A stretch of 64,000 nucleotides of DNA, from IMG/VR virus record IMGVR_UViG_3300022602_000037; one strand, 5' to 3'. Below are positions 31,201 to 54,296 of this stretch, piece by piece (position 1 is the first letter of the stretch; each line of letters starts with the position of its first letter). A program made the translations under genes and the position numbers. The notes beneath the pieces are model-generated. The model saw nothing but the letters and a program-made list of their open reading frames with translations, had not been told where the DNA came from and did not search any database. The stretch is from a virus.

Positions 31201-34200
31201 GCTTGATCATAGCCCCAACCAACAACTGCAAATTCAATTACTCCGTTTGGAGTGCTATCTGGGCTGCCACTTAAAATTAATGTTGTAAAATTAACTACAC
31301 TAGTAACTGTCTGTCCGCTTGTGAATCCAGTACCTAGCACATACATGCCTGGAAGTATGCCGATTGTACTAGTTACTCGCAATGTTGCTTCTGCACTTCC
31401 TACAGGATTATATGCAGACTGAGCTTGTACTACTGAAGAATATTTTAATTTATATACTCTACCAGATGAATTATTATATCCCGGAGCTGATATATAAATT
31501 ACATCATTACCAAATGCAAAATTTGATCCAAAATTTTCATTAGCAACAGGATAAGGACTTACAATAGTATCTACTAAAGCGTAGATATTATTTGAATCTT
31601 TCTTATATAGACTTATTACACCTTGTCGTGCATATCCAGTTTGAGCATACTGGAATGACCATTGGCCGCTGCCGCTATCAGGTGTAGAAGGAGCCTGCTG
31701 AGTAGCAGACATGATTCCACTTGCAGTCGTTAACGGCACTGCCAAGTTACTTCCTTGTATAGCTGTTATTGTAAATTGTGTACTACTAATAATTGTTTGT
31801 ACATAATAAATGACTCCAGCTACTGCTCCTCCAAATGTATTTCCAGAAAAAATAATTTCATAACCAACGCCTAATACGCTAGTATCTGCTGTGGTCAAAT
31901 AATATGTAGAGGCTGCGGTATTAGTTACTGTAATTGTTACTTGCCCATAAATTTTAATAATAGATTGATAAACATTACTCTTATAGATAACCAAGCATCC
32001 CGAAGGATAAATTACAGTTGGATCCCAGGTTCCATAACTATCGACTGGAATATAATATATTGTTTCCCAGTAGCCGTATACATCATATAATGGCTCATTA
32101 TTTGCTGGTACAACTTTAAGTGCTCGATAAAAGTTAGTAAATCCAGTATCTAAATCTACTTCACTTACAATGAGTCCTGGGCCATATACTAAAACTTGAT
32201 TCCAATTACCAATATAATTTGTAATTGCATAACCTGCCAATGGACTGCCAGTTATCATGTACGATGCATCGGGTGCGATTGCAACTGCTGTAGCAACAAC
32301 ATTTCCTTGATTTGGATTAGTTGTTATTATATAAGTAGCAGTTGTTATAGATGCATTTGCTGGCTGGCTAATTGTGACACTAACTCCTTGAATTACTGAA
32401 ATTATAATTGAATTTGGAGAAATGCCTTGACCTTCTATAACTCCGTTTAACATTCCAGAGGCTGCCGCAGACATTGTAACTACAGTACTATTGATTATAG
32501 TGCTTGCAATAACATTATAAACTGTATTGGTAGAAATAAAAGGAGGTTCAATGATTTGTCGTTGTACCCATGGCAAGGCCGGACTAGATTTATCATAAGT
32601 GGTGATTTGCCCATAACCTGTGCCTATGGCAGCCATGTTACCTTCTCTGTTGATTGCAATAACAGCACCAAACTCTAACTCATTTTGTGGAGCAGAATTA
32701 TTCAAATAAGAAATTTCATATACTGGGTTGTATTGCCAAGTAGCCCATTTGCCGTTACCCTGATCATCGGTCCAAATTAGTTCTCCTGGATTTAGACGAA
32801 CTGTGAGAATAGAATCTAATGAGTTAATACTAGATGTTCGTTGACTTACCAGTGCATACACTACCAATTGGTTTGATTGTGTAAATGGTTGAGGAAACCC
32901 AGAAATAGTAGCAGAAATTGTAAACGAATTTAAGTTTACACTGGTAATTTGATAAAATCCTTGCAACAACGCTACTTGAGAAAGCCCGACCCAATCACCT
33001 ACTTGGAATGAGGTTAAATTTTCAGTAGTTAATGTTAGTGTAAAGTTATTATTGTTATAAGAAACGTTATTAATTATAATTTGTAAGTCGGTGAATCTGT
33101 AGACATTCCAACTTGGACCATCAAATGCCACCCATACATAGGCACCTTCATTAAATGTAGTGATATCATAAGAAGATATTTCTGACAAGTATCCTAAACT
33201 TAAGAATACATCTGTGGCATTAACATATCCTGCTTCTCTTAAGAAAGAATTATACACTGGTAGTAGAGGCCAGGGTTGACTATTATAACCTAAAGGTTTT
33301 AGATAAACATCATTATATGTTTGTTCAATAATAAATGTTTCACTAAGACTTGTGTCTTTTAATTGTCTTAGTTCAAATCCCTGAGGATTAGATCTAAAAT
33401 TTGCTTCGTTGAGTATAAACTCTATATTTTCAAACGCTTTAGCGGCACCGTATTGTCCCAATCGTAATGCCCATTCTTCATAAAATACCAAACTCTCTAA
33501 GTTATCAGAACTTAGTACATTAAACAATTTATTAAGACTATTTTGTGTACCTTTTTCACGAATCATTCCTTGATAAAACTTAAATTCTGTAACATCGTCT
33601 TGTAAGATGTTATCTAGGTATTGACGTTTTTGATAACCAATTAAATGCTGTGCAACTTTTTGTTGATTATTATCAAAATTATCACTGTCTAAGCTATAAA
33701 AATCTTCAAACTGACTTGCCTTGTAAGACCAATTAGGTAATAGTTTTGCTGTAGGTTTTGTTGCCAGTTGAGTCCACTGTGTAGCATCAAAGGTTTCTGT
33801 ACCAATCAATGCCGACAATGCGCTATAATAAAATCCTTGATAATTAACAATATCGCCTAATGCATAATCTGTCCATGCTTTCCAATTTTGTATAATTGCT
33901 TGGTCAAAAATAAATCCTGGAATGTCTAATCCGCCATACCAATCGATACTAACATGTCCAGAAACTTTAAGTCTTTCTTGTCTATAACCACTTTCTGGGT
34001 TATAAATTACATCATTAAAAATTGTTGTATTACTTAAAGTAATAACTTGTTCATGTTGGATTAGATAAAAACTTGCACCATATATTCCATCAGTTGTTCG
34101 AGGACTATAAGATACTATATTTCCACTTCTGTAGCTATCTAAAAATTTTGAAGCCAGTGGAGTTCCATCAACCTTGAAAATTTCATAGTGATAGAATGGA

Positions 34201-37200
34201 TTTGTTATATCATCGACTACAGCTAAATTAGTTGTAAAAGTTAATTTACTTGCAGATGGACTTAGACTTATAACACTATTACCTACATTGCTTATTCCAG
34301 GCAACATTTGATATTTTGCCTTATCAAAAGAATCAGTAGCTGAAAGATTATATAAAGCACTGTAATAATCTCCGTTATATCTTACAATAGTACCATAAGT
34401 TACCGGAGCATTTGGCATCCAATCTTTCCATTGACTAGAATCAGGAGTCCAGTTTTGAGTAGTCCAGAATAAAAATTCTTTAGCACTAGTTTCCCAATTT
34501 GTAACTAGGCCTAAGTTAACGTTAAAGCTGTCAAAAGTAAATCCTTCGTCTTGAAGATATCTGCCGTACCCTAGTAAGAAATCTACAACTTCTTGTTTAG
34601 TTTGAAATTCAGTACCGTAAGGAACAACAATAGGTTTAGTTCTGTCCCAACCAGTTCTAATAACAGCACTAGCTCCACCTACTACCGGTAAATGACCTAA
34701 GGGAGTAAAAATATTTGAATCAAACGCAGTACCTGCAACAGTGGTAGATAATGTTCTGTAGTAAGAATTTACATATTTTACAATAGTACCAGTTACGTAT
34801 GTTTCTCCTGGCGTCCAAGTTACATAAGGTGCGCTAATACCACCAATGACTGTTGTAGGACCAGATTTAACATAAGGATAATAGGTAAAATATGGTTGAG
34901 TTTGACTGTAGCCTTTTACTTCATACCCGTCGGGCATCTTTGTAATAATAACACCACTATAAACTATTTTCCTAATTGGGCTTGAACTATTTAGAAATAC
35001 ATTAAAATTTTCTGCAGGAACAAATACGTTACCAGTACTTGCAGGAGTTTTAGAATCTAATAATAAATTCATCTGCTCTTTACTAGTAAATGCGCCAATT
35101 CTATAAGATATCTGTGCTGTCATTGTAGCAAGATCAGTTATATATTGCTTGTAAGATTGTACATTATTACTAAAAATAAAATTTAAGATTTGATCTACAA
35201 TATAGTTTACAATACCTGCGGTTTGTACTCTAGTAGTACTAGAATAAATGCTTGGTAATAAAATATCTGCTGGAGATATTCTTAAATTAGTTTTTGTATA
35301 AACTAATTGTCCTGCTAAATTTCTTGCTATTCTAGATCTGTCTAACAAAATGTTTATAGTTTTAGCAGGTGTTAATAATATACTAGCAATAACAACTGCA
35401 AATGGGTAATGACTGCTACGACGCCATGCTGTTTCAACTGGACTTTGATCTCCGAATACAAATCCGTTTCCTGTATTTTGTGTTATAGTGCCGTTAGCAA
35501 GGCCAGACGCTATAGGATTTATTAATAATCCATTGCTATCCACTGGGATATGCTTCATTAAAAAGGGTTTAGCATACTTAGACAATTTAATTGTAGGCAT
35601 TCCTGGCTCTCTGACCATGCCATCATTAATATCTTGCCACATTGGTAGATTGTCACCGGTATAAGGTGCTGGTCCGTATAACTCTACCCACCAACTTGGT
35701 TGTTGACTAAATCCTAACATTTCCCAAGGACATAAATTTGGACGATCGGTGTCTAATAAATATTGGAATATGCCTCTCCAATATCCTGGAAGTTGTCTGC
35801 CGTCGGGTGCATAGTTATCCGAATAATTATAACTAAACGGATTGTTTATATCATAACTAAGAGGTTTTGTAAAATCTCTTCCTGATAGTTTAGTCCACTT
35901 GTAAAAATTAGGAGCTAATACTTGATTAAATTCTGCAAGACTGTAATCATTAGATCTGTTATAACTAGGAATAATGTCAGCTACATCAAAAATTGTAGGA
36001 TCGTACTGAACTTTAATATTATTAAAAATACGTTTTTCTAATTCTAATAACAGCTGATCTCGGTAATCTCCATAGGCAAGTATTTTACTACCATCGTGAC
36101 CTTGAATCATAGTTTGCGGAGTAGCATAGGTATTGTCTACATAAATTTGTGGAACATAGGCTGGCCACATTCCATATTTTGTAGGTGTAGCTGGAACAAA
36201 ACTACCATCAGTGCTGTCATATTCTACTGTTGTGATAGTGTCTCCATTATTCATTACTACGCTATTGGTAATAGTAAAATATCCTTGATTGTCAAATGTA
36301 TAATCTCTACCATGTACTAATTGACTGTTATTCAAGTAAATACCAACAGCTTTATTGGATAAAGTAGTTAATGTGAATACTGAACTTAATGGATATTGTT
36401 TTATTCTATAATCAACTACTGAAAGATTTGTTTTAACAGATGCTCCGTACGGAATCATATCACTAAAATAATAAGGAGCAGTATTAGGACGATCCTTGTT
36501 TATTTTTTGCATTATTAAATCTACAAGTGTAACTGGATCTCCGTCAACGCCCAAACTAGTAGCTGTCTTAACAAAATTTCTTTTGAAATTATTATAGTCA
36601 TCTCGACTTTGTTCAATTGAACGTATAATATTATTTGTTTCTGAAGTAATATGATATATTGTAGTGCTTAACGGACCACTGTGCTGTACAAATTTTGTTC
36701 CGTATTGTGTAACATTGCCTAAATCTCTTAAATTTCCATCCCCTGGAAATGATCCAACAAATGTTGTTCCAAGATTATCAACAATTGAATTTACATGATC
36801 TGCAACTTCACCTAATGTAAAATCTCCCATGATGTTATTCAAAGGATTATTTTGCAGATTAATTGGAATTTCGTAGTAGCCTTTACTATTAATTATTTGT
36901 GAGGCAAATGCACGGATTGTTAAAACATCACTTTTAGATATCGGATTAACCAATGTAATAAATTTGTAGTTAGGTCCTGAATTTAATTGCCACAATGTTG
37001 GGCTTAATCTAATTCCGTTTACATAAATTTTAACCACAAGATCTGATAAGTTTGTGATATCGTCAAAAATATCTAAATTAAATTTTGTTGTTAGCCCAGA
37101 ATTTTTGTAAATTCTAACGGCAGCTTGCGTATTAGGTGCAGAACATGTTTGCCAGCCATTTTTATAAGTTAACCCACCAGCATAAGTTTGTTTTACTAGA

Positions 37201-39104
37201 TATCCTACATTAATATTTTTTGTAATTAGTGATGTAGATTCCTTATACTGGAATGTATCAGTAGCCAATGTGAAATTAAAAACAATATCGCCAATATTAC
37301 TGATATTTCTGTAACTAAGAGGAAACCCTAATGTAGTATCTGCTACCCCAGATCCTATTTTATATGAAAATAAAGTAGTTCCTACAAATGTACTACCATT
37401 GTAAACACTAGTATCTCCGTAACTTATTGTGTTTTCATCAACTACATCAAACAAAGGTGCTTGGTTAATTTTAGTTTTTTGCTGGCCTAATACCCAAGAA
37501 GTTCCGTTATACCACCAACTGGTTCCTTGATAAGTTAAACCATTCTTAATCAATGCAACTTGATTCAGAACTGGTTCTGCTATTTCAGCTAAATGTATTT
37601 GTCGGCTACCTGAACTAAGATGTAATACGTCTAAGAACTGTACTTCAAACACCTTATTTCTTGTAAGTCTATCTGTATCGGCTGTGAAAATAATACGTTG
37701 CCCTTGAGCTAATGGAATTCCATCAACATGATATCCAAATGCTCCTTCAATTTGTGTAAATGCATCTTTAGTAAAAGTATCAATGATATCAATATCGGCA
37801 ATTGCGGTGGTTCCTGAATTTGCTAACTTGAGATCTGCTTCAAATTCTATAATAGGTCTAATAGCTCTTGCTGTTTGATCGATACTAGCAACATTGCCAT
37901 TATATGTTGCACTTGCGGTGATTACATCTTTATGAAACCATCTATTATAACGACTCCAATTATTGTAATCGTTACTAGCCCGGTTAATCACAATATAGTC
38001 TTGTGACCCAGCAAAACCTGTTGCATCGCTGAAAGGGTTATTATCAAATTTATCGCTGTCAAAAGGAATAGTTTTTTCTGTAGTATAGTTATTAATAACT
38101 TCTAAAGTAGTTGTCAATATTAGTTTTATAGCAACGCCCACTCCTTCTACATAATATTCACCGGTAGCGTACTCTGCCGGTGTTACATTGCCGACAAATT
38201 TAAGTTTCATTCCGTTACTAAGTTGTGTTCCATCAGCAAATTTATAAGTCTTTTTACCTAGAAGATCATTAGCAACATCTGTGTAAGTATCTTCGGTAAT
38301 TGATAATATTTCAAAAACTCCGCCCAGGTTAAGATCGCTTTCACTTTGATAATAAAGCACTGTTGGAGCATCTAATGGAACTGTAAATGTTAGTAAACCT
38401 TGTTCTATTCCGTAGCCGCTTACTAAATCATTTTCGTATCTGTTATCTGTTCCTGCACTTCTATCAGTTTTTATACTAAAAGGATTTCCAGGACTATTAA
38501 TTTCAAAATTATATGTTTGCCCTCTGTAGAGTTTTAACACAGGATTTCTTGTAAACCCGTTAGGAGTAAACAAATATTCTTTATTGCTTAATTCATTTTC
38601 AATAGTAACAGTATATGTACTTTCAATGGCCTTAACTTGTCCCGGAAACACAATAGTCTCGGGTCCGTAAGGCAACCAATAGTAGTTTTGAAAATTAACA
38701 AATTTGTCCCAATCAATATGGGGATCCCAGCTATAAAATTCTTGTTTATTTAATCTAGCATGATTTTTTGTATTACCACCAAATACTCCGATTTGATTTA
38801 TGTAATCCATGTAATCTTTGAAAAATGTAGTATTACCTAAACTATCTTGAATATTAATACTAGGTTCAAGTTGATAATTTTGTCTGTTTACTGTAGGTGC
38901 AGTTAGATAGATATCAGAACCTGTGGCACTTTTTGCATTTTCTCGACCAATATAACCGTTGATTTTCTTTACAGCACCTGGTTGGAATAACTGATCAACC
39001 GTTGCTTGTAAAAATTTGTCGTTGGCGGGTGTTTGATAAAATGTTGGTAATAATTTTTTTGTTATACCTACATTGCCGCTTTTTGCGTCACGACTATTAG
39101 CCAT
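22272..39104 (-). CDS. Giant (5610 aa) baseplate/tail virion protein
   Basis: Uninterrupted 16.8-kb ORF directly after the gp6-like gene; W...Y..G.IV.Y modules, FG-GAP-like propeller motifs, G.GY...P.I repeats, GDG.T..F repeats. Confidence 0.8.
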   Translation of the reverse strand: MANSRDAKSGNVGITKKLLPTFYQTPANDKFLQATVDQLFQPGAVKKINGYIGRENAKSATGSDIYLTAPTVNRQNYQLEPSINIQDSLGNTTFFKDYMDYINQIGVFGGNTKNHARLNKQEFYSWDPHIDWDKFVNFQNYYWLPYGPETIVFPGQVKAIESTYTVTIENELSNKEYLFTPNGFTRNPVLKLYRGQTYNFEINSPGNPFSIKTDRSAGTDNRYENDLVSGYGIEQGLLTFTVPLDAPTVLYYQSESDLNLGGVFEILSITEDTYTDVANDLLGKKTYKFADGTQLSNGMKLKFVGNVTPAEYATGEYYVEGVGVAIKLILTTTLEVINNYTTEKTIPFDSDKFDNNPFSDATGFAGSQDYIVINRASNDYNNWSRYNRWFHKDVITASATYNGNVASIDQTARAIRPIIEFEADLKLANSGTTAIADIDIIDTFTKDAFTQIEGAFGYHVDGIPLAQGQRIIFTADTDRLTRNKVFEVQFLDVLHLSSGSRQIHLAEIAEPVLNQVALIKNGLTYQGTSWWYNGTSWVLGQQKTKINQAPLFDVVDENTISYGDTSVYNGSTFVGTTLFSYKIGSGVADTTLGFPLSYRNISNIGDIVFNFTLATDTFQYKESTSLITKNINVGYLVKQTYAGGLTYKNGWQTCSAPNTQAAVRIYKNSGLTTKFNLDIFDDITNLSDLVVKIYVNGIRLSPTLWQLNSGPNYKFITLVNPISKSDVLTIRAFASQIINSKGYYEIPINLQNNPLNNIMGDFTLGEVADHVNSIVDNLGTTFVGSFPGDGNLRDLGNVTQYGTKFVQHSGPLSTTIYHITSETNNIIRSIEQSRDDYNNFKRNFVKTATSLGVDGDPVTLVDLIMQKINKDRPNTAPYYFSDMIPYGASVKTNLSVVDYRIKQYPLSSVFTLTTLSNKAVGIYLNNSQLVHGRDYTFDNQGYFTITNSVVMNNGDTITTVEYDSTDGSFVPATPTKYGMWPAYVPQIYVDNTYATPQTMIQGHDGSKILAYGDYRDQLLLELEKRIFNNIKVQYDPTIFDVADIIPSYNRSNDYSLAEFNQVLAPNFYKWTKLSGRDFTKPLSYDINNPFSYNYSDNYAPDGRQLPGYWRGIFQYLLDTDRPNLCPWEMLGFSQQPSWWVELYGPAPYTGDNLPMWQDINDGMVREPGMPTIKLSKYAKPFLMKHIPVDSNGLLINPIASGLANGTITQNTGNGFVFGDQSPVETAWRRSSHYPFAVVIASILLTPAKTINILLDRSRIARNLAGQLVYTKTNLRISPADILLPSIYSSTTRVQTAGIVNYIVDQILNFIFSNNVQSYKQYITDLATMTAQISYRIGAFTSKEQMNLLLDSKTPASTGNVFVPAENFNVFLNSSSPIRKIVYSGVIITKMPDGYEVKGYSQTQPYFTYYPYVKSGPTTVIGGISAPYVTWTPGETYVTGTIVKYVNSYYRTLSTTVAGTAFDSNIFTPLGHLPVVGGASAVIRTGWDRTKPIVVPYGTEFQTKQEVVDFLLGYGRYLQDEGFTFDSFNVNLGLVTNWETSAKEFLFWTTQNWTPDSSQWKDWMPNAPVTYGTIVRYNGDYYSALYNLSATDSFDKAKYQMLPGISNVGNSVISLSPSASKLTFTTNLAVVDDITNPFYHYEIFKVDGTPLASKFLDSYRSGNIVSYSPRTTDGIYGASFYLIQHEQVITLSNTTIFNDVIYNPESGYRQERLKVSGHVSIDWYGGLDIPGFIFDQAIIQNWKAWTDYALGDIVNYQGFYYSALSALIGTETFDATQWTQLATKPTAKLLPNWSYKASQFEDFYSLDSDNFDNNQQKVAQHLIGYQKRQYLDNILQDDVTEFKFYQGMIREKGTQNSLNKLFNVLSSDNLESLVFYEEWALRLGQYGAAKAFENIEFILNEANFRSNPQGFELRQLKDTSLSETFIIEQTYNDVYLKPLGYNSQPWPLLPVYNSFLREAGYVNATDVFLSLGYLSEISSYDITTFNEGAYVWVAFDGPSWNVYRFTDLQIIINNVSYNNNNFTLTLTTENLTSFQVGDWVGLSQVALLQGFYQITSVNLNSFTISATISGFPQPFTQSNQLVVYALVSQRTSSINSLDSILTVRLNPGELIWTDDQGNGKWATWQYNPVYEISYLNNSAPQNELEFGAVIAINREGNMAAIGTGYGQITTYDKSSPALPWVQRQIIEPPFISTNTVYNVIASTIINSTVVTMSAAASGMLNGVIEGQGISPNSIIISVIQGVSVTISQPANASITTATYIITTNPNQGNVVATAVAIAPDASYMITGSPLAGYAITNYIGNWNQVLVYGPGLIVSEVDLDTGFTNFYRALKVVPANNEPLYDVYGYWETIYYIPVDSYGTWDPTVIYPSGCLVIYKSNVYQSIIKIYGQVTITVTNTAASTYYLTTADTSVLGVGYEIIFSGNTFGGAVAGVIYYVQTIISSTQFTITAIQGSNLAVPLTTASGIMSATQQAPSTPDSGSGQWSFQYAQTGYARQGVISLYKKDSNNIYALVDTIVSPYPVANENFGSNFAFGNDVIYISAPGYNNSSGRVYKLKYSSVVQAQSAYNPVGSAEATLRVTSTIGILPGMYVLGTGFTSGQTVTSVVNFTTLILSGSPDSTPNGVIEFAVVGWGYDQAEVYTGNITGMNFGYSLAISNDNSTLAISAASSVTTALVAIFKATPTVVLTTTGATGTGTTATLTFAKQTLLPYALGDTITVSGVVPSSFNGAFVVTAVTLNSVSYASHATGPQTQAGTISGNSLTGFGLVQILQGVDYDIQLAISDDGNYIAISDDTTSSTQIKQQGSVAVYNYHTDSGLYFIQQTLVPHQPETNGHFGRKISFMNNFETLVIYSQYGDTFITTTFDKNSTTFDKNSTPFTVRQINSGRIDIYDRYDTSWVFSESLTRSNPVTPAGEFVVGNTYSILSLGTTDFTKVGASVNAIGVTFTATGDGSGTGIAAIITNEGGVADGYGTGFAVGGNHVLIGAPFGIDHGLTSGRVYDYSKMPGTKTWTIIHSEIDKPDVKKIKKAFLYNRTLGTLVTYLDIIDPAQGKIAGPAEEEIKFKAFYDPATYSVGDTTVNVNTGTAWKDDQVGLLWWDLRTAKFLNAYEDNPVYKNTNWNSLATGASIDIYEWVSYNQLPAVWDSLADTPAGITAGISGTSLYGNSCYSVKQTYNTVTQTFKNTYYFWVKNKKFIPNVAGRNLAASDVSTLIANPRGQGYTYLALTGPSSFSLVNAKQYLKHDEVVLSVEYWLGSKTNQNVHSHWKLVSEDPTTYIPDVIEQKWIDSLCGNDSVGRPVPDPALPPKLRYGIENRPRQGMFVNRFEALKEFVEQANQILLANQIVENSDLKNLESYDPAPAITTGLYDIAFDNYAELIYASVGNYTTPSINPTISDGRITGITINTDSTGNPLSGKGYLVAPYITVNGTGTGAVVNAIINTKGQITGAKVISSGQGYDSTTTLTIRNYSALIRSDVNANGNWSIYAWIPPVTSVGKTTVGYWSLVLTQAYDVRNYWSYADWYATGYSQFTAADFSVATLADLNSISPIIGQTVKVRTTNTGGWELLYKYADSTSIDWTQSYHVVGLQNGTIQLDASLYNLSNTQLGFDNNIYDSQSFDLYASTELRIILSSLKNDIFKGELNGSYLDLFFGSVHYIHSEQLYVDWIFKTSFVRAQHNVGGLDQPVTYKPDNLANFEDYVNEVKPYKTTVREYISNYDSIDPAQLPITDFDLPSIYENNKRTLIQVYSQNDKIIAQDPAIETYPWKFWLDNAGFTITELKLTSGGSGYVTEPQVIFTSNSGSGATARAFISNEKVNRIVLLTPGTGYLSAPTITIKGGILPTGTPATAVAIIGKSLVRSNYVGIKFDRVDQTYVITQLEKTETFTGTGSRLQFVLQWGPDNTIGKSSVTLNGILALRDTYTLAIVSSTVKGYTTYSGTITFTTAPKKGVSIVVTYNIAESLLSATDRIQYYYTPSAGEPGKDLAQLMTGIDYGGVIVNGLGFEISQGWDSVPFYSDKWDSYDSTYKDYSVVVNANTNTFTLPYTPDNGIQLNIYRTQVNVDSYVSDGVTKEYVYNTQDIAPYVTLTHTTYSSGVRATFASVASVAGSYVNTITLVSTANITVGMTATGEGFVSGQTVTAILSSTQVQLSVPPDSLPSGIIIFTTNVVASNILYVNSVTGIRVGDVITTTDTSLSLFALNTTVTAVGPNSTLGLSANQVQLSSILYFEIPDSTYLNFVRTLIHPTDVVISNNGKITLTNLTNSGIALGSIISILGKLNPVRLDDPNYNIKPFFAQLVESAAYDAAYNSNYQSILVGLAISNHITSYGYKSSETNYSINNLLETVSNLQGVGTNAEAVLAIDTNTAIVTTIVGGGIVPQPIFTLPYGTPTSIVYNVPNINGSPIGTYVYIPVASISATPVQAGWSVSGLGLTGFATVVAVVLHNGLVAAQINQSIGLQAEYGNYTFISPNYGLYSAATLLNDNIPFIQAELIQYITNNYPSVVYDQTDFQTKIQYIVLSLCYDLTYGGNRESIYSANQYWIYNNSIPFIQPPAYWSGVFGYLNSMAQHIITNTQFTRLQTHFFQYTNSGLANGQIAGTAISNNISTITTIISSAFYPNAPVTNPTAPAQDAGLQTVLSTILSNESTLIPSINATAIVNTFLSDGVSDVGGLTTKTFSIPQPYTLVDGGQANTTIDIEVDDGGSASTVYGILDKVDAGSNASANVFTVSKGDEFVIRQTTSDGSIAPRDQDYDTSLSGGDTTTLNGVYATATGLSADDIIVDGDGLITTTTNVAPEEVVPGQLVDALAIKIFEKPTSGSGVIRTDNYIGDGATTGFKISQQPNSPGAVIVKVGGAIKTVTTDYDVDYRNNNIVFHTAPTSNSEISIFSIGFNGANIIDIDYFVGDGTTSEFVSSATWTTPITTLVYVDGKVASPQIFKTDKTYLYSGAIGFNFGKAPAAGALINFIIVAGTVPTYAITNVETIATNGQFTYNLQNPVGTFLPDESDMIVRVDQSILPAPVNAYFTIGSNRLNYTVDPTKFVPYSIDIRTLYVYAGSNTLTLGTDYIVDLSGVTIKINKTTYNTYKGQTLVVSLTTGEGYTYNALNNQITFNTAYDNTHLVQVISSYQHEFLDSQRTTLSTSTLASLTPNSSFYFYMYNILGGIVQLDRQVLSEYYVWVIKNGTLLSPVIDYKLNPDYQSITLAQNTSITDKLTIITFGSNVYTSGIAYMQFKDMLNRVTYKRLSKSKQTTLAQDLHWNDTVIVVENASNFDLPNPSKNKPGVIEIRGERIEYFSLVGNQLSQLRRGTLGTGIYSVSLAGTLVQDIGPFENIPYSDTQKVTQIVSDGTNLVSLDFVPATINDMEIFVGGYNDGSVWETGAVYPVGAIVNVGSYTYRCLISHISGSTFFSSVTQVTINSDGTTTSIATNIASSSAWKFFIGNRRLKKVGYSVFNINNAPTSPEGDVAFSPDFTIPAVKYYGPTWASGLAVAIGVYVNYENNYYEVTVAGVLGTTGPNHTLGTASNGTASLTFIINGATVILTNLLSFGTQITVVQNSGLAWDNVTSVLYDTGKISDFLRAEPGIWYSEYKQISNVSVGTFDNTLLSFDGTRTTFDQGTTQ
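30486..30532. repeat. 21-bp tandem repeat (2.2 copies) in the giant gene, encoding TTFDKNS twice
   Basis: TGTAGAATTTTTATCAAATGT repeated exactly. Confidence 0.9.
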
Positions 39105-48425: not shown

Positions 48426-49253
48426 ATGACAACTAAAATAAATTACCTAAACAACAAGGATATGTTGTTAGAAATACATAGATCAAAAAGTTCATATTGT
48501 AGCTTTACCAAACCAGAATATCACCAATATGACATAATTTTACCTAGCATAGACAAAATTAATATACGTACTATAGCAGAAGCCAAACGCAATAGAGCCA
48601 AACGTATAGGAGATTTGGATTATCAAACTCGAAAAAAAGCCGGCGAAAAAGTCAAACAAGCAGACTGTGAAGTAGACTATAAAAAGATTGCTAAAACAGA
48701 TCTAGTCTTTAGGATTATGACATTTGATCATATCCCACTTAACAGTACTCGTAAAAAGAATCCCAAGAGTCTTGCTGACCATAGAGATAAGGTCAACTTT
48801 CCGCCATTCCAACATTGGAAATTTAATGACGCAGACGAACTCGAATGTGTTGGAAAAAGTCATTGGAAAGGTGATTTAGTCAAGGGTAAGTTTGATAAAG
48901 ATGCTGGCCAAATTACTAACACTTTAGCACGTATGATGTTAAAATTGTGTGAAAGGTATGCTACTCGCGGCAATGTTCGCGGTTACACATACAATGACGA
49001 AATGAAAGGACAGGCCATTTTGCAGTTAACACAAATTGGGTTACAATTTGACGAAAGTAAATCAGACAATCCGTTTGCTTATTTTACTGCGGCTGTTACT
49101 AATAGTTTTGTTCGTGTTATTAATATTGAGAAACGTAATCAAAATATTCGTGACGACATTTTAGAAATGAATGGAATGAATCCAAGTTATAGCCGTACTG
49201 GTGCTGGAGAACATGCGGCCGCAATGAAACGAAACGAGGAAGCCGGTGAGTAA
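48426..49253 (+). CDS. Late-transcription sigma factor (T4 gp55-like)
   Basis: NYLNNKD N-terminus; N.RGYTY.DEM...A......FD..KS.NPFAYFT.....F.R.I..EK; next to gp47/gp46 as in T4. Confidence 0.85.
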   Translation: MTTKINYLNNKDMLLEIHRSKSSYCSFTKPEYHQYDIILPSIDKINIRTIAEAKRNRAKRIGDLDYQTRKKAGEKVKQADCEVDYKKIAKTDLVFRIMTFDHIPLNSTRKKNPKSLADHRDKVNFPPFQHWKFNDADELECVGKSHWKGDLVKGKFDKDAGQITNTLARMMLKLCERYATRGNVRGYTYNDEMKGQAILQLTQIGLQFDESKSDNPFAYFTAAVTNSFVRVINIEKRNQNIRDDILEMNGMNPSYSRTGAGEHAAAMKRNEEAGE

Positions 49254-50259
49254 TTTATTCAAAAAAGTAGCGTGTTTTACTGATATACATTTTGGATTGA
49301 AATCTAACAGCTCGGTACACAACCAAGACTGTGAAGACTTTGTAGATTGGTATATTGCAAAAGCAAAGGAGGAAGGATGTGATACAGGTATCTTTATGGG
49401 AGACTGGCATCATAATCGTAATAGTCTTAATATCACTACAATGGACTATAGTCTTAGGGCGTTGGAAAAATTGGGTCAAGCGTTTGATAATTTTTATTTC
49501 TTCCCTGGTAATCACGACTTGTATTATAAAGACAAGCGAGATATTCACTCAGTGGAGTTTGGAAAATATATCCCTGGCATTACTGTTGTTCACGAGCCTA
49601 CCACTATTGGTAACGTCACTTTGTGTCCCTGGCTTGTTGGGGAAGAATGGAAAAGCCTAAAAGGCTCTAAGAGCAAATATATCTTTGGACACTTTGAATT
49701 GCCTTTATTTTATATGAATGCCATGGTACAAATGCCAGATCATGGCGAACTTAAAGCAGATGATCTGCGTGGGCCCGATTATGTATTTTCAGGTCATTTC
49801 CACAAACGTCAACAACAAGGCAATGTAGTTTATATCGGCAATGCATTTCCACACAATTATGCAGACACATGGGACGACGAACGCGGCATGATGATTTTAG
49901 AGTGGGGTAAAGAACCTGTATATTACACATGGGGTCAACAGCCTACATTCCGTACACTAAAATTAAGCGAATTAATCGACGGCGCAGACACTATTATTAA
50001 ACCTAAACAGCATTTGCGAGTTACATTAGATATCGATATCAGCTATGAAGAAGCTAGTTTTATTAAAGAAAAATTCATGACAGATTATGATATTCGAGAA
50101 TTAACTTTGATTGCTGAAAAGAAAGATATAGAAATTAATACTAATATTGATATACAGTCGTTTGAATCAGTAGATCAAATTGTTAGTAGTCAGATTATTA
50201 ACATTGAAAGTGACACTTACGACAAGAATACCTTGTTAAGCATTTATAATAGCCTATGA
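49246..50259 (+). CDS. Recombination nuclease gp47 (Mre11/SbcD-like)
   Basis: DIH, GDWHH, GNHD, GHFE, SGHFH metallophosphoesterase motifs. Confidence 0.92.
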   Translation: MSNLFKKVACFTDIHFGLKSNSSVHNQDCEDFVDWYIAKAKEEGCDTGIFMGDWHHNRNSLNITTMDYSLRALEKLGQAFDNFYFFPGNHDLYYKDKRDIHSVEFGKYIPGITVVHEPTTIGNVTLCPWLVGEEWKSLKGSKSKYIFGHFELPLFYMNAMVQMPDHGELKADDLRGPDYVFSGHFHKRQQQGNVVYIGNAFPHNYADTWDDERGMMILEWGKEPVYYTWGQQPTFRTLKLSELIDGADTIIKPKQHLRVTLDIDISYEEASFIKEKFMTDYDIRELTLIAEKKDIEINTNIDIQSFESVDQIVSSQIINIESDTYDKNTLLSIYNSL

Positions 50260-50386
50260 TAAAATTAAAAGAAATTGCATCAAAGAGTGTTTTGAAAAAG
50301 GCTTAAGGCCGCAAGAAGCGGCGCAAGTTAGCAATCTTAGAATGCTACCTTGGAAGGATAATTTAATGAGGCAATATGGCAATTAA
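50256..50386 (+). pseudogene. Relic of an HNH homing endonuclease with a duplicated gp46-like start
   Basis: Start-less frame 50276-50386 CIKECFEKGLRPQEAAQVSNLRMLPWKDNLMRQYGN*; mini-ORF MIKLKE... at 50256-50306. Confidence 0.55.
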
Positions 50387-52157
50387 ACTAAAAGAATTAA
50401 CGGTAAAAAATTTCATGAGTGTGGGTAACCAGACTCAAGCTGTAAACTTTGCACAACAAAATTTAACATTGGTCTTAGGTGAAAACTTAGATCAAGGCGG
50501 AGATGACAGCGGAAGTCGCAACGGTACAGGCAAGACAACTATAGTAAATGCACTTAGTTATGCCCTATTTGGCAATGCTTTAACTAACATTAAAAAAGAT
50601 AATCTTATCAATAAGATTAATTCAAAAGGCATGTTGGTTACACTAGCATTTGAAAAAGATGGCATAGATTATCGTATTGAACGTGGCCGTAAACCAAACA
50701 TTCTTAAATTTTTTGTAAACGATCAAGAGCAGGAAACCGTAGAAACTGATGATGCTCAAGGTGATGTAAGAGAAACACAAAAAGATTTAGACGATCTGAT
50801 CAGTATGAGTCACGATATGTTCAAGCATATTGTAGCATTGAACACTTATACAGAACCATTCTTAAGCATGCGGGCTAATGATCAACGTGTAATCATCGAA
50901 CAATTATTAGGAATTACCATACTAAGTGAGAAAGCAGAAGCACTCAAAGAGATGATTAAACTAACTAAAGATTCTATCACTCAAGAGTCTGCTAACATCG
51001 AAGCGGCCAAAAGAAGTAACGAAAAAATACAACAAAGTATTGACGGGTTGTTAACAAGACAAAGTGCTTGGAATACACAACATACACAAGAAGTGGAGAA
51101 AATTGCCCGTGCTATCGTAGAGCTAGAAAGTGTAGATATTGAAACTGAGCTTGCGAAGCATGCGGAGCTAAAAGCCTATGAAGAAAAGGCAGCGAAGCTG
51201 AAAAGCCTAAATAAGGAGCGGGCTACGCTAGAAAGCGCGATAGCGCAAGCAGAGCGAAGCGTTACAAAGTATAACGCTGAGCTTATGAAGTTGGCGAATA
51301 AGCAGTGCCATGCTTGTGAACAACAACTACATGATCACAAACATGAAGAAATGACCCAATTGGCTCAAACTCACCTTGACGAGGCCGGAAAATATTTCGA
51401 CAAGATCACACAAGATTTCAATAAAATACAGACAGAAATCAACAGTTTGGGCGAATTAAATACTCGACCCAACACTTACTATGACACCGTCGAGCAGGCG
51501 TTAAAACACCAGAACAATCTAAAGAGTTTAGAAAATCAGCTGACGATCAAGGCAGGAGAGTCTGATCCTTATCAAGAGCAAATTGACGAATTGACCGATA
51601 CTGCCATGCAGGAAATCACATGGGATCGTGTAAATGAACTAAGTGCAATCAAGGATCATCAAGAGTTCTTGCTTAAACTGTTAACATCTAAAGATTCGTT
51701 TATTCGCAAGAAAATCATTGACCAGAACCTTGCTTACTTGAACAACCGTCTAACTTATTATTTGGATAAAATGGGCTTGCCCCATACTGTTTTATTCCAA
51801 AACGACCTAAGTGTACTAATTACACAACTAGGACAAGATTTAGATTTTGACAATTTGTCGCGTGGTGAACGTAACCGCTTGATACTATCATTATCATGGG
51901 CGTTCCGTGATGTATGGGAAAGTTTGTATCAGCAGATTAACTTGTTGTTTGTAGATGAATTAATAGATAACGGGCTTGATGCATCGGGTGTAGAAGGCGC
52001 ACTAGCAGTGCTTAAAAAAATGGCACGTGAGCGTAAAAAGAACATTTTCCTAATTAGTCACAAGGACGAATTGATCGGACGTGTGAACAATGTCTTGAAA
52101 GTAGTTAAGGAAAATGGCTTTACCAACTATGCCAACGACCTAGAGATCAATGAGTAA
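50376..52157 (+). CDS. Recombination ATPase gp46 (Rad50/SbcC-like)
   Basis: KNFMS, Walker A NGTGKT, coiled coil with CHAC zinc hook, signature LSRGE, Walker B LFVDE, ISH. Confidence 0.93.
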   Translation: MAIKLKELTVKNFMSVGNQTQAVNFAQQNLTLVLGENLDQGGDDSGSRNGTGKTTIVNALSYALFGNALTNIKKDNLINKINSKGMLVTLAFEKDGIDYRIERGRKPNILKFFVNDQEQETVETDDAQGDVRETQKDLDDLISMSHDMFKHIVALNTYTEPFLSMRANDQRVIIEQLLGITILSEKAEALKEMIKLTKDSITQESANIEAAKRSNEKIQQSIDGLLTRQSAWNTQHTQEVEKIARAIVELESVDIETELAKHAELKAYEEKAAKLKSLNKERATLESAIAQAERSVTKYNAELMKLANKQCHACEQQLHDHKHEEMTQLAQTHLDEAGKYFDKITQDFNKIQTEINSLGELNTRPNTYYDTVEQALKHQNNLKSLENQLTIKAGESDPYQEQIDELTDTAMQEITWDRVNELSAIKDHQEFLLKLLTSKDSFIRKKIIDQNLAYLNNRLTYYLDKMGLPHTVLFQNDLSVLITQLGQDLDFDNLSRGERNRLILSLSWAFRDVWESLYQQINLLFVDELIDNGLDASGVEGALAVLKKMARERKKNIFLISHKDELIGRVNNVLKVVKENGFTNYANDLEINE

Positions 52158-52416
52158 ACACGTTGAACCTAGTCCTTATCAAAATGAAGAGAGCCATGAA
52201 CAACTCATGGCGGCTTTCAAGGAATATTTTAAGGCAAATCAAGATTGGCAAGCTAAAGGCACAAGAAGAGCAGGCGAAAATATGCGCTACTGGCTAGCGC
52301 AGATTAGAATTATAGCACGAGAACGCCGTACACATGTACAGCAATATCGTGTGTGGTTAGATCGTAACAAGGCAGCAAAAAAGGCAAACCAAAAGGCAAG
52401 TGATAGTGAGGACTGA
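52150..52416 (+). CDS. Small basic helical protein (possibly Hc1/histone-H1-like)
   Basis: 88 aa; KGTRRAG..MR..L..I......R..VQ pattern; family call is tentative. Confidence 0.6.
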   Translation: MSKHVEPSPYQNEESHEQLMAAFKEYFKANQDWQAKGTRRAGENMRYWLAQIRIIARERRTHVQQYRVWLDRNKAAKKANQKASDSED

Positions 52417-52431
52417 TTAACTACATAGTTA

Positions 52432-52857
52432 ATGTCCTGGTTTTATCAAGATCAAATAATAGATACTTTACCCGAAGATTGTGTTGGGTTTGTTTATATC
52501 ATAACAAACACCGTCTCGGGGCGCAAGTACATAGGCAAAAAACTGGCAAAATTCTCCAAAACTACTTACAAAATAGTAAAACTCAAAAACGGCACTAAGA
52601 AGAAAAAGCGAATTCGTAGCAAAATTGATTCAGACTGGCGAGACTATTATGGTAGTAGCCCTGAACTGACCAAGGATGTTGAGAAATTAGGCAAAGAAAT
52701 TTTTACTAGAGAAATACTTTTTTACTGTAAAAGCAAGGCAGAGTGTAGTTATATCGAAGCTCGTGAGCAGTTTGCACGTAGAGTTCTTGAATCTAAAGAC
52801 TATTATAATGGTCATATTCAAGTGCGTGTACATGGTTCACATATACTTAAATCTTAA
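52432..52857 (+). CDS. Stand-alone GIY-YIG nuclease-domain protein
   Basis: GFVY...YIGKK, YYGSS, REIL..C......Y.E, YYN; 141 aa with no separate DNA-binding domain. Confidence 0.85.
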   Translation: MSWFYQDQIIDTLPEDCVGFVYIITNTVSGRKYIGKKLAKFSKTTYKIVKLKNGTKKKKRIRSKIDSDWRDYYGSSPELTKDVEKLGKEIFTREILFYCKSKAECSYIEAREQFARRVLESKDYYNGHIQVRVHGSHILKS

Positions 52858-52884
52858 TTATTTAGGCCCGTTAATCACCAAATA

Positions 52885-53332
52885 AGCCCGCACAGGCGTT
52901 GCTATTGTGCCCTGAATCCGTTCTGATGTGTGACGGCAAGGTAGTTCTGCTTGGTGACAGAGTTATAAATCACTATCCCTTACCGGACGCTGACGGAATA
53001 TGCCTCAAATCCGTTTGATTTATAAGTAGGAGAATAAGGCTAAAAGAGGAGTAGTAGCTCCACGGTTATTAAGCGTTTAGTGTTGTTTAATAGCCCGCCG
53101 TCATATAAAGACTCAGCTCGTGGTACCGGATGACCGCCACTGTAATGCTGAAACACTAGGGTGATATTGTTCGACTCAGATAATGTCCACTCATTTTGCC
53201 CGCTAGGGCAAAGTGTGACTGAACGATCTAGATAATATCTTAACGCTTCGCGTTTAATTAAAGATTTTCTACTTCTAGATAGTTCGAGCCAAAGCGAAGA
53301 ACAGAAGAACGCAAGTTCTTCTTTGAACTGTC
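52885..53332 (+). ncRNA. Candidate large structured non-coding RNA
   Basis: Many nested stems with G-U pairs that work only on the + strand, a long-range 11-bp helix and a 7-9 bp pseudoknot; ends approximate. Confidence 0.7.
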
Positions 53333-53340
53333 GATAAATA
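53333..53340 (+). promoter_or_regulatory. Late promoter GATAAATA, probably giving a leaderless mRNA
   Basis: 5 nt before ATG 53346; no SD. Confidence 0.7.
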
Positions 53341-53345
53341 TCATT

Positions 53346-54296
53346 ATGAAAATCCACGAATTAGTTGAAGATAATACAAGATCTGATGAAAGCCTTGCTA
53401 CTTGGCTAGTTAGTACAGGTGCTAAGTTAGGCGGAAAGCAAGCAGTAAAAGCTGGACTTAAAGCGGCACCCACGGCTACTAAACTAGGTTCACAAGCAGT
53501 ACAAACAGCGGCCAAGAGCAAGGGTGTTGTGGGAGTTGCTGTAGAGTTTGGCCAGCTGGTCAGTAAGATAGTCAAAGTTTTTATCACACTGGGATTTGGT
53601 TATAGCGTAGCACAGCCTATTTACAGTTATTATAAAAATGTCACTAAAATTGAAGACATGTATAAAAATGGTGAAGTTACCCAGGAAGAATATCAGTATC
53701 AGCGTCAACAACTAATGGGATTGATGATTACACGAGTAGCTGTAGTTCTAGAAGCTGCCGCAATCTTAGGTAGTGCCGCTGGTGTTCTAAAAGTATTCAA
53801 AATTCTAATTGGCTGGGTTCCTGGTTTAGGTAAAGTTTTAAGTTCATTAATTGGTATACTGGAAGGTGGTAATGCTGTGGCCGCTGCCGGTGCTATTACT
53901 TTGATCAACAGCAAATGGGGCAGTGAGTGGATTACTAAAATTGCATTTTATCATCTTAGTGAAATATTTCCCAGTTTGAAAGGCACTTCATGGGATATGG
54001 ATCTAGCAGATGTGCTAGGTGCAGGTGGTACATTTATTGTAGATGGTGTTAAGAAAATTTCAGACAGTGTATTAGGCACACACTTACAAGATCCAGCAGA
54101 TGCTCCTATCAAGAATCAAAATAAACCTAACACACCTACTGATCCTAATGCGGCTGCCGACCAAGCGGCTGGTGATCTTGCAGACAAACAACATAAAGAT
54201 CAACAGACTAAATCAGATGACAAGTGGGATCAAATAGGTCCTGGTAGAGAACAGAATCGTCGTACTGGTGTAATACGCATGAACGACAAGTATTAA
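53346..54296 (+). CDS. Hydrophobic, probably virion-internal or ejected protein
   Basis: 316 aa; MKIHELVE N-terminus; several long G/A-rich hydrophobic segments. Confidence 0.65.
   Translation: MKIHELVEDNTRSDESLATWLVSTGAKLGGKQAVKAGLKAAPTATKLGSQAVQTAAKSKGVVGVAVEFGQLVSKIVKVFITLGFGYSVAQPIYSYYKNVTKIEDMYKNGEVTQEEYQYQRQQLMGLMITRVAVVLEAAAILGSAAGVLKVFKILIGWVPGLGKVLSSLIGILEGGNAVAAAGAITLINSKWGSEWITKIAFYHLSEIFPSLKGTSWDMDLADVLGAGGTFIVDGVKKISDSVLGTHLQDPADAPIKNQNKPNTPTDPNAAADQAAGDLADKQHKDQQTKSDDKWDQIGPGREQNRRTGVIRMNDKY

What the first reader, a model, noticed from the sequence alone, without database searches (positions are those of the whole stretch)
52432..53332. Large pseudoknotted RNA directly after a stand-alone GIY-YIG nuclease: candidate undescribed nuclease-RNA system
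Seen: 52858-53345 is by far the longest intergenic gap in a tightly packed genome, and most of it can base-pair. Stems: GCACAG/TTGTGC (52890-52910); long-range TGTGTGACGGC (52927-37) with GCCGTCATATA (53097-107); perfect TTATAAATCA (52963-72) with TGATTTATAA (53016-25), closing a junction that holds GACGGA/TCCGTT; GGAGT/GCTCC (53048-61); GGTTATTAAGC (53064-74) with GTTTAATAGCC (53085-95); TCAGC/GCTGA enclosing GTGGT/GCCAC (53113-51); GATATTGT/ATAATATC (53163-53239) enclosing CATTTTGCCC-GCTA-GGGCAAAGTG; and GATAGTTCGAG/TTTGAACTGTC (53278-53332) enclosing AGAAGAAC-GCAA-GTTCTTCT (a GNRA loop). The loop TAGTGTT (53078-84) is complementary to AACACTA (53152-58) outside the long-range helix, which is a pseudoknot. 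Non-Watson-Crick positions in these stems are G-T on the + strand, as expected for a + strand RNA. The upstream 141-aa protein is only a GIY-YIG catalytic domain with a basic insertion (KIVKLKNGTKKKKRIRSK) and no homing-type DNA-binding domain. Established: compact nucleases paired with large adjacent RNAs (IscB/omega-RNA) are RNA-guided, and phages carry large ncRNAs of unknown function (GOLLD, ROOL). Inference: this RNA may be a scaffold or guide for the nuclease, a ribozyme, or a replication/packaging RNA. I do not recognise it as tmRNA, RNase P or a group I/II intron.
Basis: partly seen in the sequence, partly recalled or inferred. Interest (0 to 1): 0.9.

Follow-up and report, generated by a model that had tools for sequence, protein, structure and literature searches.

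The report
Extended Polynucleobacter-1 phage RNA, twin boxes
The gene-free gap behind a small nuclease gene of this uncultured T4-like phage encodes a real, multiply knotted non-coding RNA of about 450 bases; its first third is the catalogued but unexplained Polynucleobacter-1 motif, it does not depend on the nuclease, and its uncatalogued part carries the same 7-letter word twice for a partner I could not find.

Summary
The gap 52858-53345 is by far the longest in a window that is about 97% coding. It encodes a + strand RNA of about 450 nt (about 52875-53325). On 40 homologues, 106 pairs are 82.8% paired against 35-43% when slid, and 79 pairs show compensatory changes.

It is not wholly new. 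Positions 52885-53025 are Rfam RF01718 (Polynucleobacter-1, 81 bits, cut-off 37). The supplement of the 2010 paper already placed that motif behind the PSSM2_218 gene family, which is this GIY-YIG protein (41% identity). About 300 nt are uncatalogued: the 3' part, a new 5' pseudoknot, and two 7-nt boxes. The boxes are identical in 118 of 119 RNAs and changed in step 14 of 14 independent times.

The nuclease-RNA reading is weak:
- Full-length copies sit in Polynucleobacter chromosomal islands without the nuclease.
- One phage has a PD-(D/E)XK nuclease in its place, and others have inserted genes.
- Hundreds of cultured phages have the nuclease, and the four checked lack the RNA.
- No nuclease residue changes in step with the boxes.

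Function is unknown. My best guess is a mobile-element RNA that grips two copies of one partner. Earlier follow-ups of this scan reached the same reading on other genomes.

The parts
52432..52857 (+). Gene for a 141-aa stand-alone GIY-YIG nuclease (SegE-type catalytic domain; the basic insertion at residues 40-66 is modelled as a long beta hairpin)
   Evidence: Pfam PF19835, E 3e-33. PHROG 447, E 7e-38. AlphaFold model pLDDT 87.9. I-TevI catalytic domain Z 8.1, T4 EndoII Z 4.9. 41% identical to P-SSM2 PSSM2_218.
52875..53325 (+). Whole structured RNA (full-length Polynucleobacter-1-type RNA). The bounds are the first covarying pair and the last hairpin; the true ends were not mapped.
   Evidence: Homologous over its whole length in 138 loci (119 distinct sequences). 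106 pairs, 82.8% paired against 35-43% slid; 79 pairs with changes on both sides.
52885..53025 (+). Part matched by Rfam RF01718, Polynucleobacter-1 RNA
   Evidence: cmscan 81.2 bits against a gathering score of 37, model positions 1-141 of 141, E 1e-15.
52875..52878 (+). 5' strand (TCAC) of a new long-range pseudoknot; pairs with GTGA 52954-52957 in the loop of hairpin 52944-49/52958-63
   Evidence: 52875:52957 shows GC 41, AU 36, UA 13, GU 10, CG 7. All 4 pairs are compensatory and 89% canonical. Kept as CTACTG/CAGTAG or CTACCG/CGGTAG in the chromosomal copies.
52886..52910 (+). H-type pseudoknot: GCC 52886-88 with GGC 52895-97, interlaced with P1 GCACA 52890-94 / TGTGC 52906-10
   Evidence: P1 98% canonical with 3 compensatory pairs. 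52886:52897 shows GC 93, AU 22; helix 92% canonical against 16% slid.
52918..52936 (+). Local hairpin CCGTT/GACGG (Rfam stem 2).
   Evidence: 52919:52935 shows UA 81, CG 21. 52923:52930 shows CG 49, UA 43.
52964..53024 (+). Outer helix 52964-71/53017-24, closing a junction with hairpins 52977-78/52985-86 and 52995-99/53008-12
   Evidence: Seven of 8 outer pairs are compensatory. 52995:53012 shows CG 89, GC 17, AU 7.
53064..53095 (+). Long hairpin 53064-74/53085-95, whose loop forms the next pseudoknot
   Evidence: All 11 pairs are compensatory and 91% canonical.
53077..53159 (+).
   Evidence: 97% canonical, 6 of 7 pairs compensatory. 98.8% of cells paired on A1.
53100..53151 (+). Pseudoknot GTCA 53100-03 with TGAC 53131-34, the latter in the loop of 53120-24/53136-40; the hairpin sits inside helix 53113-17/53147-51
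   Evidence: 53102:53132 shows UA 75, CG 44. 53103:53131 shows GC 81, AU 31, GU 7. 100% canonical.
53174..53187 (+). Box 1: ACTC + heptamer AGATAAT (53178-84) + GTC; predicted unpaired
   Evidence: The heptamer equals that of box 2 in 118 of 119 RNAs, with 9 heptamer types. Pairing probability is at most 0.34.
53192..53215 (+). Hairpin between the two boxes, CATTTTGCCC-GCTA-GGGCAAAGTG
   Evidence: Core 97% canonical. 53197:53210 shows UA 63, AU 26, CG 9.
53226..53239 (+). Box 2: ATCT + heptamer AGATAAT (53230-36) + ATC
   Evidence: On a tree built without the box columns, letter 1 changed about 23 times, always in both boxes. Independent pairs: 14 of 14 the same way, p 1.2e-4. Letters 5 and 7: 6 of 6 and 7 of 7.
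53242..53255 (+). UUCG-loop hairpin AACGC/GCGTT
   Evidence: Visible with stem changes in A1. Column counts are poor because the alignment shifts here, so support is moderate.
53282..53301 (+). Hairpin GTTC-GAGC-CAAA-GCGAA-GAAC, with a conserved GAGC...GCGAA internal motif
   Evidence: Motif found in 112 of 119 RNAs; 104 of them have a flanking stem with at least 3 of 4 canonical pairs; 30 distinct stem sequences. Inner GC/GC pairs 100% paired.
53303..53322 (+). Last hairpin AGAAGAAC-GCAA-GTTCTTCT, terminator-like
   Evidence: 97% canonical, 7 of 8 pairs compensatory. The equivalent hairpin of the chromosomal copy L230 is called terminator-like. The window's own T tail is weak.
53333..53341 (+). 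GATAAATAT, resembling the T4 late promoter TATAAATA, just before the downstream gene (inference)
   Evidence: Conserved only in loci whose downstream gene is on the + strand. The consensus is from my own knowledge of T4.

Best explanation
The gap encodes a free-standing structured non-coding RNA of about 450 nt, carried by mobile elements of freshwater bacteria. It is the full-length form of the RNA whose 5' third Rfam lists as Polynucleobacter-1.

Shown: a compact core held by four pseudoknots; a strand call from G-U pairs; a last hairpin that looks like a terminator; and two predicted single-stranded boxes about 52 nt apart that always carry the same 7-nt word.

Inferred: the RNA is transcribed with, or from within, the gene upstream of it. 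The folded core serves as a scaffold that presents the two boxes. The boxes read two copies of one partner by base pairing, or read the two halves of a symmetric partner. The word sets the specificity, which differs between elements.

The GIY-YIG gene is a usual neighbour in phages, either as a shared operon or as a nuclease-gene insertion hot spot. It is not a required partner.
For: Structure: 106 pairs are 82.8% paired against 69.2% in shuffles and 35-43% when slid. 79 pairs have changes on both sides. Covariation score is 0.394 against 0.166 and 0.07-0.09. Top mutual-information pairs are canonical and include four pseudoknots.

Family: RF01718 at 81.2 bits.

Independence from the nuclease:
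- 18 of 151 Polynucleobacter genomes hold the RNA.
- The chromosomal copies are full length with the same knots and boxes. They have no GIY-YIG gene within 1.5 kb and lie next to a DUF6641 gene and a short integrase.
- L136 has a PDDEXK_15 gene in place of the GIY-YIG gene. Five loci have another gene inserted between the two.
- GIY-YIG relatives without the RNA are common.

Boxes:
- Identical in 118 of 119 RNAs; 9 words in phages and 4 others in chromosomes.
- Two copies in one genome carry different words.
- Concerted change in 14 of 14, 6 of 6 and 7 of 7 independent contrasts.
- Unpaired in ensemble folds.
Against: No partner was found. The word and its complement are not enriched within 3 kb of 119 loci or within 10 kb of the chromosomal copies. 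Complements with flanks are scattered in two host genomes.

No transcript data could be obtained, so expression, ends and strand rest on covariation alone.

The 92% adjacency to the GIY-YIG gene, while both outer flanks vary, is stronger than plain synteny predicts. A functional tie in phages is therefore not excluded.

The co-evolution test had only about 10 independent contrasts.
Confidence: 0.5

Rival explanations
1. Nuclease-RNA system. The RNA is the scaffold or guide of the upstream GIY-YIG nuclease, which lacks a DNA-binding domain. The twin boxes are guides that aim a nuclease dimer at two identical half-sites.
For: 97 of 105 RNA-bearing phage loci have the GIY-YIG gene directly upstream, including a clade only 55-59% identical. 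The RNA starts within about 20 nt of the stop codon. The protein is a catalytic domain only. A short hypervariable duplicated segment exists.
Against: The RNA occurs without the nuclease in 10 chromosomal loci, and behind a PDDEXK_15 gene or other genes in phages. The nuclease occurs without the RNA in at least 9 close loci and in cultured phages. No residue co-switches with the boxes. No complementary target was found. T4 EndoII shows that a bare GIY-YIG domain works without a guide (own knowledge; fold match Z 4.9).
Confidence: 0.1
2. Selfish-gene neighbourhood. The GIY-YIG gene, and the PDDEXK gene in L136, are free-standing homing endonuclease genes that settle next to the RNA gene because its nearly invariant DNA holds their cleavage site. 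Adjacency then says nothing about what the RNA does.
For: The protein family is SegE-type. A different nuclease family occupies the same slot in L136. The RNA gene has long invariant runs such as GGTACCGGAYRACCGCC. Free-standing endonuclease genes beside RNA genes are known, such as T4 segB in the tRNA cluster (own knowledge).
Against: The gene is nearly fixed next to the RNA and 73-87% identical among loci, unlike the patchy, decaying pattern typical of homing genes. It lacks the DNA-binding domain of Seg proteins. The same short protein is near-universal in cyanophages at other loci. No cleavage site was tested.
Confidence: 0.2
3. Cis-acting 3' untranslated region that controls the stability or translation of the upstream mRNA.
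For: The RNA always begins right after the stop codon of whatever gene lies upstream in phages. No promoter-like site lies in the gap.
Against: The upstream gene differs between loci: GIY-YIG, PDDEXK, SGNH-like, unknown. In chromosomes the RNA follows a 200-nt spacer and a divergent gene, so it cannot be a 3' UTR there. A 450-nt RNA with four pseudoknots and a switching specificity word is far beyond known 3' stabilisers.
Confidence: 0.07
4. Ribozyme or intron: a self-cleaving or self-splicing RNA, for example a group I-like intron with its endonuclease gene.
For: Its size and knotted core are in the range of large ribozymes. GIY-YIG genes often ride in phage group I introns (own knowledge).
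Against: No intron or ribozyme family matches at E up to 10. The flanks are complete genes that differ from locus to locus, so there are no exons to join. The endonuclease gene lies outside the folded RNA.
Confidence: 0.05
5. The gap is protein-coding on the - strand (105-aa ORF at 53040-53357).
For: the ORF listing shows the ORF.
Against: A stop-free run of at least 100 codons on the - strand exists in only 14 of 119 homologous regions, with a median of 67. Changes are compensatory base-pair changes.
Confidence: 0.01

Closest known systems
Polynucleobacter-1 RNA motif (Rfam RF01718; Weinberg et al. 2010, Genome Biol 11:R31, PMC2864571)
   Same: Positions 52885-53025 match the full 141-position model at 81 bits. 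The stems are the same. The habitat is the same (fresh water, Polynucleobacter). The position is the same, downstream of the GOS11034 / PSSM2_218 gene family, which is shown here to be this GIY-YIG protein.
   Different: The catalogued motif is under a third of the RNA. The real unit is about 450 nt. It has an extra 5' pseudoknot strand outside the model, an H-type pseudoknot around P1, about 300 nt of further conserved structure with two more pseudoknots, twin boxes and a terminal hairpin. The 2010 authors found it in no purified phage and did not name the gene as a nuclease.
Large ornate non-coding RNAs of phages and mobile elements (GOLLD, ROOL, HEARO; Weinberg et al.)
   Same: It is hundreds of nucleotides long, multiply pseudoknotted, found by comparative genomics, carried by phages and islands, and of unknown function.
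   Different: There is no sequence or model match. Same-letter co-variation of two boxes is not, to my knowledge, a described feature of those classes.
IscB/omega-RNA (HEARO) and TnpB/reRNA guided nucleases
   Same: A small nuclease gene lies next to a large structured RNA that holds a short variable segment.
   Different: The nuclease is GIY-YIG, not RuvC/HNH. The RNA and the nuclease occur apart. The variable segment is 7 nt, internal and duplicated, not a terminal guide of 16-20 nt. No target was found.
SegE / I-TevI-type GIY-YIG homing endonucleases and T4 EndoII
   Same: The protein has the GIY-YIG catalytic fold (PF19835; I-TevI Z 8.1; EndoII Z 4.9). Like EndoII, it is domain-only, about 140 aa.
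   Different: It has no linker or DNA-binding domain as in I-TevI and Seg proteins. It is near-universal rather than sporadic in several T4-like groups. Its activity is untested.

Membership tests
Rfam RF01718 Polynucleobacter-1 RNA | Covariance-model score at or above the curated gathering score over the full model | tested here: met
   81.2 bits against 37, model positions 1-141 of 141.
Rfam RF01718 Polynucleobacter-1 RNA | Model stems kept through compensatory changes in relatives | tested here: met
   P1, stem 2, stem 3, the outer helix and the inner hairpins covary.
Rfam RF01718 Polynucleobacter-1 RNA | Location downstream of the GOS11034 / PSSM2_218 gene family (supplement to the 2010 paper) | tested here: met
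   The upstream protein is 41% identical to PSSM2_218, E 3e-20.
RNA-guided nuclease systems (IscB/omega-RNA, TnpB/reRNA) | RuvC-type (with or without HNH) nuclease carrying an RNA-binding part | tested here: not met
   The protein is a GIY-YIG domain only.
RNA-guided nuclease systems (IscB/omega-RNA, TnpB/reRNA) | RNA and nuclease always occur together | tested here: not met
   RNA without the nuclease. Nuclease without the RNA.
RNA-guided nuclease systems (IscB/omega-RNA, TnpB/reRNA) | Variable guide complementary to a target | tested here: inconclusive
   Variable twin 7-mers exist, but no complementary site was found.
Group I intron | Match to the intron covariance model | tested here: not met
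   No intron family at E up to 10 in 52300-53500.
Group I intron | Interrupts a gene whose exons can be rejoined | tested here: not met
   The flanks are complete ORFs that differ among loci.
Free-standing GIY-YIG homing endonucleases (Seg family) | GIY-YIG catalytic domain | tested here: met
   PF19835, E 3e-33. I-TevI Z 8.1.
Free-standing GIY-YIG homing endonucleases (Seg family) | C-terminal DNA-binding domain | tested here: not met
   141 aa, with the domain spanning residues 3-129. Relatives are the same length.
Free-standing GIY-YIG homing endonucleases (Seg family) | Cleaves the allele that lacks the gene and is inherited preferentially | not testable with these tools
   Needs cleavage assays and phage crosses.

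The most novel reading that the evidence does not exclude
The twin boxes are programmable guides. The knotted RNA presents two identical 7-10-nt single strands that base-pair with two copies of one sequence, for example the two strands of a palindromic DNA site or two RNA molecules. It then recruits whichever effector its element encodes: the GIY-YIG or PD-(D/E)XK nuclease in phages, other proteins in the Polynucleobacter islands. That would be a new kind of bivalent RNA-guided system used in conflicts between mobile elements.
Probability: 0.08. Interest if true: 0.9.

Novelty: new variant of a known kind. Interest (0 to 1): 0.6.

Why it matters
Polynucleobacter-1 has sat in Rfam since 2010 as a 141-nt orphan motif. 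This locus and its relatives show that it is the head of a much larger RNA with four pseudoknots. It is also shared with integrative islands of Polynucleobacter, the likely host.

Two boxes change in step yet stay identical. That signature is not the base-pair covariation usual for RNA, and it points to a specificity element read twice. It gives a concrete experimental handle: swap one box or both. Polynucleobacter strains that carry chromosomal copies offer a culturable system.

For annotation, Rfam's model should be extended, and the family labelled 'NAD synthetase' (PHROG 447) is a GIY-YIG nuclease.

Tried and rejected
1. Boxes as promoters. YTCTAGATAATR is enriched in the window, 9 against 2.15 expected. 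All other hits lie inside structural genes and encode x-V-D-N-x.
2. A cis partner. The locus's own word and its complement are not enriched within 3 kb of 119 loci or within 10 kb of the islands. ATTATCTNAG occurs only in the RNA gene itself.
3. A host partner. Complements with flanks are scattered in genomes G124 and G026, with no paired sites.
4. Internal pairing of the boxes. The best candidate, AGAU with AUCU, has probability 0.33 and is not conserved. A helix between the two spacer segments is no better in own pairs than in cross pairs, 4.07 against 3.80.
5. Co-evolution with the GIY-YIG protein. The best residue co-switches in 4.9 of about 10 contrasts.
6. Box 1 as a mimic of the GIY-YIG start region. 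AGATAATGTCC resembles AGTTAATGTCC in the window, but start regions do not track the word in other loci.
7. blastn of the gap against 50,697 phage records found no match. The four cultured relatives checked (Melnitz-3, V45v66, ACP17, S-SRM01) lack RF01718 beside their GIY-YIG homologue.
9. A PDB sequence search gave nothing for the protein, and Foldseek was weak.
10. PADLOC found no defence family for the island proteins. No papers mention DUF6641. No later paper mentions the RNA.
11. A possible pairing or triple of 53097 and 53107 with the hairpin 53197-53210 rests on one clade and was not pursued.

Full report
**What is in the window.** The window is part of an uncultured T4-like myovirus.
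- The late sigma factor gp55 lies at 48426-49253.
- The gp47- and gp46-like recombination nuclease genes lie at 49246-52157.
- An 88-aa ORF follows, then a 141-aa gene at 52432-52857, then the gap.
- After the gap come a 316-aa ORF and baseplate genes.
- The gap 52858-53345 (488 nt) is the longest ORF-free stretch. The next is 116 nt, and coding is about 0.97.

**The protein.** It is a GIY-YIG catalytic domain and nothing else.
- Pfam SegE_GIY-YIG matches at E 3e-33 over residues 3-129.
- A confident model (pLDDT 87.9) superposes on the I-TevI catalytic domain (Z 8.1, rmsd 2.7, 82 residues). It also matches a GIY-YIG restriction enzyme (Z 6.9), T4 EndoII (Z 4.9) and UvrC (Z 4.8).
- The family is very common. 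At least 584 viral contigs encode relatives at 73-87% identity.
- 514 cultured-phage records hold relatives below 60% identity, mostly cyanophages. Many are labelled 'NAD synthetase'.

**The RNA is real and partly known.**
- Rfam places RF01718 (Polynucleobacter-1) at 52885-53025 with 81.2 bits against a cut-off of 37. Nothing else in Rfam matches the rest, even at E 10.
- Of about 65 GIY-YIG loci with enough downstream DNA, 50 carry a homologous region of about 460 nt starting at the stop codon.
- A scan with an RNA-internal 17-mer brought 118 more loci.
- On 40 sequences, a structure of 106 pairs is 82.8% paired, against 69.2% in shuffles and 35-43% when slid. 79 pairs have changes on both sides, and the covariation score is 0.394 against 0.166.
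- Mutual information on 119 distinct RNAs recovers the helices without prior assumptions.
- Wobble pairs are G-U on the + strand. The - strand ORF of the window is not conserved.

**Anatomy.** Four pseudoknots are supported:
- 52875-78 with 52954-57. This one is new and reaches 5' of the Rfam model.
- 52886-88 with 52895-97, interlaced with P1.
- 53077-83 with 53153-59.
- 53100-03 with 53131-34.

Three do not: the long-range 52927-37/53097-107, 53163-70/53232-39 and 53278-88/53322-32.

The RNA ends in a covarying hairpin at 53303-22. In a chromosomal copy the equivalent hairpin scores as terminator-like. The motif GATAAATAT before the next gene resembles a T4 late promoter; this is an inference.

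**Twin boxes.** Two stretches about 52 nt apart flank a conserved hairpin.
- Box 1 is ACTC-AGATAAT-G at 53174-85.
- Box 2 is ATCT-AGATAAT-A at 53226-37.
- The 7-mer is identical within an RNA in 118 of 119 cases but takes nine forms among phages. It takes four other forms in bacterial copies, and two copies in one genome differ.
- CTC against TCT, just 5' of the word, is a fixed difference. This argues against simple gene conversion.
- On a tree built without these columns, the first letter changed about 23 times, always in both boxes. Independent contrasts give 14 of 14 (p 1.2e-4), 6 of 6 and 7 of 7.
- The boxes are unpaired in ensemble folds. No complementary site was found in cis, in the window or in two host genomes.

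**Link to the nuclease.** The link is strong in phages. Of 105 RNA-bearing loci with enough upstream DNA:
- 97 have the GIY-YIG gene directly upstream.
- 5 have another gene inserted between the two.
- 3 lack the GIY-YIG gene. One of these has a PDDEXK_15 endonuclease in the same slot.

The outer flanks vary. Upstream is gp46, the 88-aa ORF or radical-SAM genes. Downstream is diverse.

The link is not obligate:
- At least nine close GIY-YIG loci have no gap.
- The four cultured relatives checked lack the RNA.
- RF01718 is present in 18 of 151 Polynucleobacter genomes, including complete chromosomes.
- Those copies are full length, with the same knots and boxes. They lie beside a divergent DUF6641 gene and a short tyrosine recombinase, with no GIY-YIG gene.
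- No GIY-YIG residue changes in step with the boxes.

**What was already known.** The supplement of Weinberg et al. 2010 says that most Polynucleobacter-1 RNAs lie downstream of genes with possible homology to P-SSM2 PSSM2_218, and that none was seen in a purified phage. PSSM2_218 is 41% identical to the window's protein. The gene-RNA association is therefore old, though the gene was not recognised as a nuclease. I found no later paper on the RNA.

Earlier follow-ups of this scan on other genomes reached the same reading: an extended Polynucleobacter-1 RNA with twin boxes and an unknown reader. I reached mine before reading them.

**Verdict.**
- The novelty claim is reduced by the Rfam match.
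- The nuclease-RNA mechanism is unlikely, about 0.1.
- The most likely reading, about 0.5, is an autonomous mobile-element RNA whose knotted core presents two identical recognition words to a partner read twice.
- Expression, RNA ends and the partner are untested.

Noticed in passing
window 53333-53341 and 53229-53239: The late-promoter-like motif before the downstream gene (TCGATAAATATC here, TAGATAAATATCTTA in several relatives) is box 2 (TAGATAATATCTTAA) with one extra A. It is present only where the downstream gene is on the + strand.
   Followed up: partly
window 22272-39104 (- strand): A single open reading frame of about 16.8 kb (about 5,600 aa) lies among the structural genes. Neighbouring large ORFs repeat x-V-D-N-x coding motifs (CTnTAGATAATR at 12935, 12986 and 16990).
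   Followed up: no
L136 8819-9385: In one related phage a PDDEXK_15 endonuclease gene (PF24608, E 6e-30) occupies the slot of the GIY-YIG gene, between the gp46-adjacent small ORF and the RNA.
   Followed up: partly
L230 898-1365 (-) and 2739-3134 (+); L231 10959-16887: Polynucleobacter chromosomal copies of the RNA lie in a small island with a divergent DUF6641 protein (phrog_31551), small unknown ORFs, a 188-198-aa tyrosine recombinase and an AAA ATPase. The island sits next to ordinary housekeeping genes.
   Followed up: partly
window 52432-52857; P-SSM2 PSSM2_218 (L236 26712-27149): The short GIY-YIG family is widely labelled 'NAD synthetase' in GenBank and in PHROG 447. The Pfam match and the fold show a GIY-YIG nuclease, so the label looks like a propagated error.
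   Followed up: yes
window 52421-52436 against 53178-53188: The start region of the GIY-YIG gene (AGTTAATGTCC) matches box 1 with its tail (AGATAATGTCC) in 10 of 11 letters. Other loci do not show this, so it is probably chance.
   Followed up: yes
L101 10375-11148; L193, L094, L144, L110 (my re-oriented copies): Genes of 257-308 aa (unknown, or SGNH-like) are inserted between the GIY-YIG gene and the RNA in a few phages. In each case the RNA again starts right after the stop codon of the inserted gene.
   Followed up: partly
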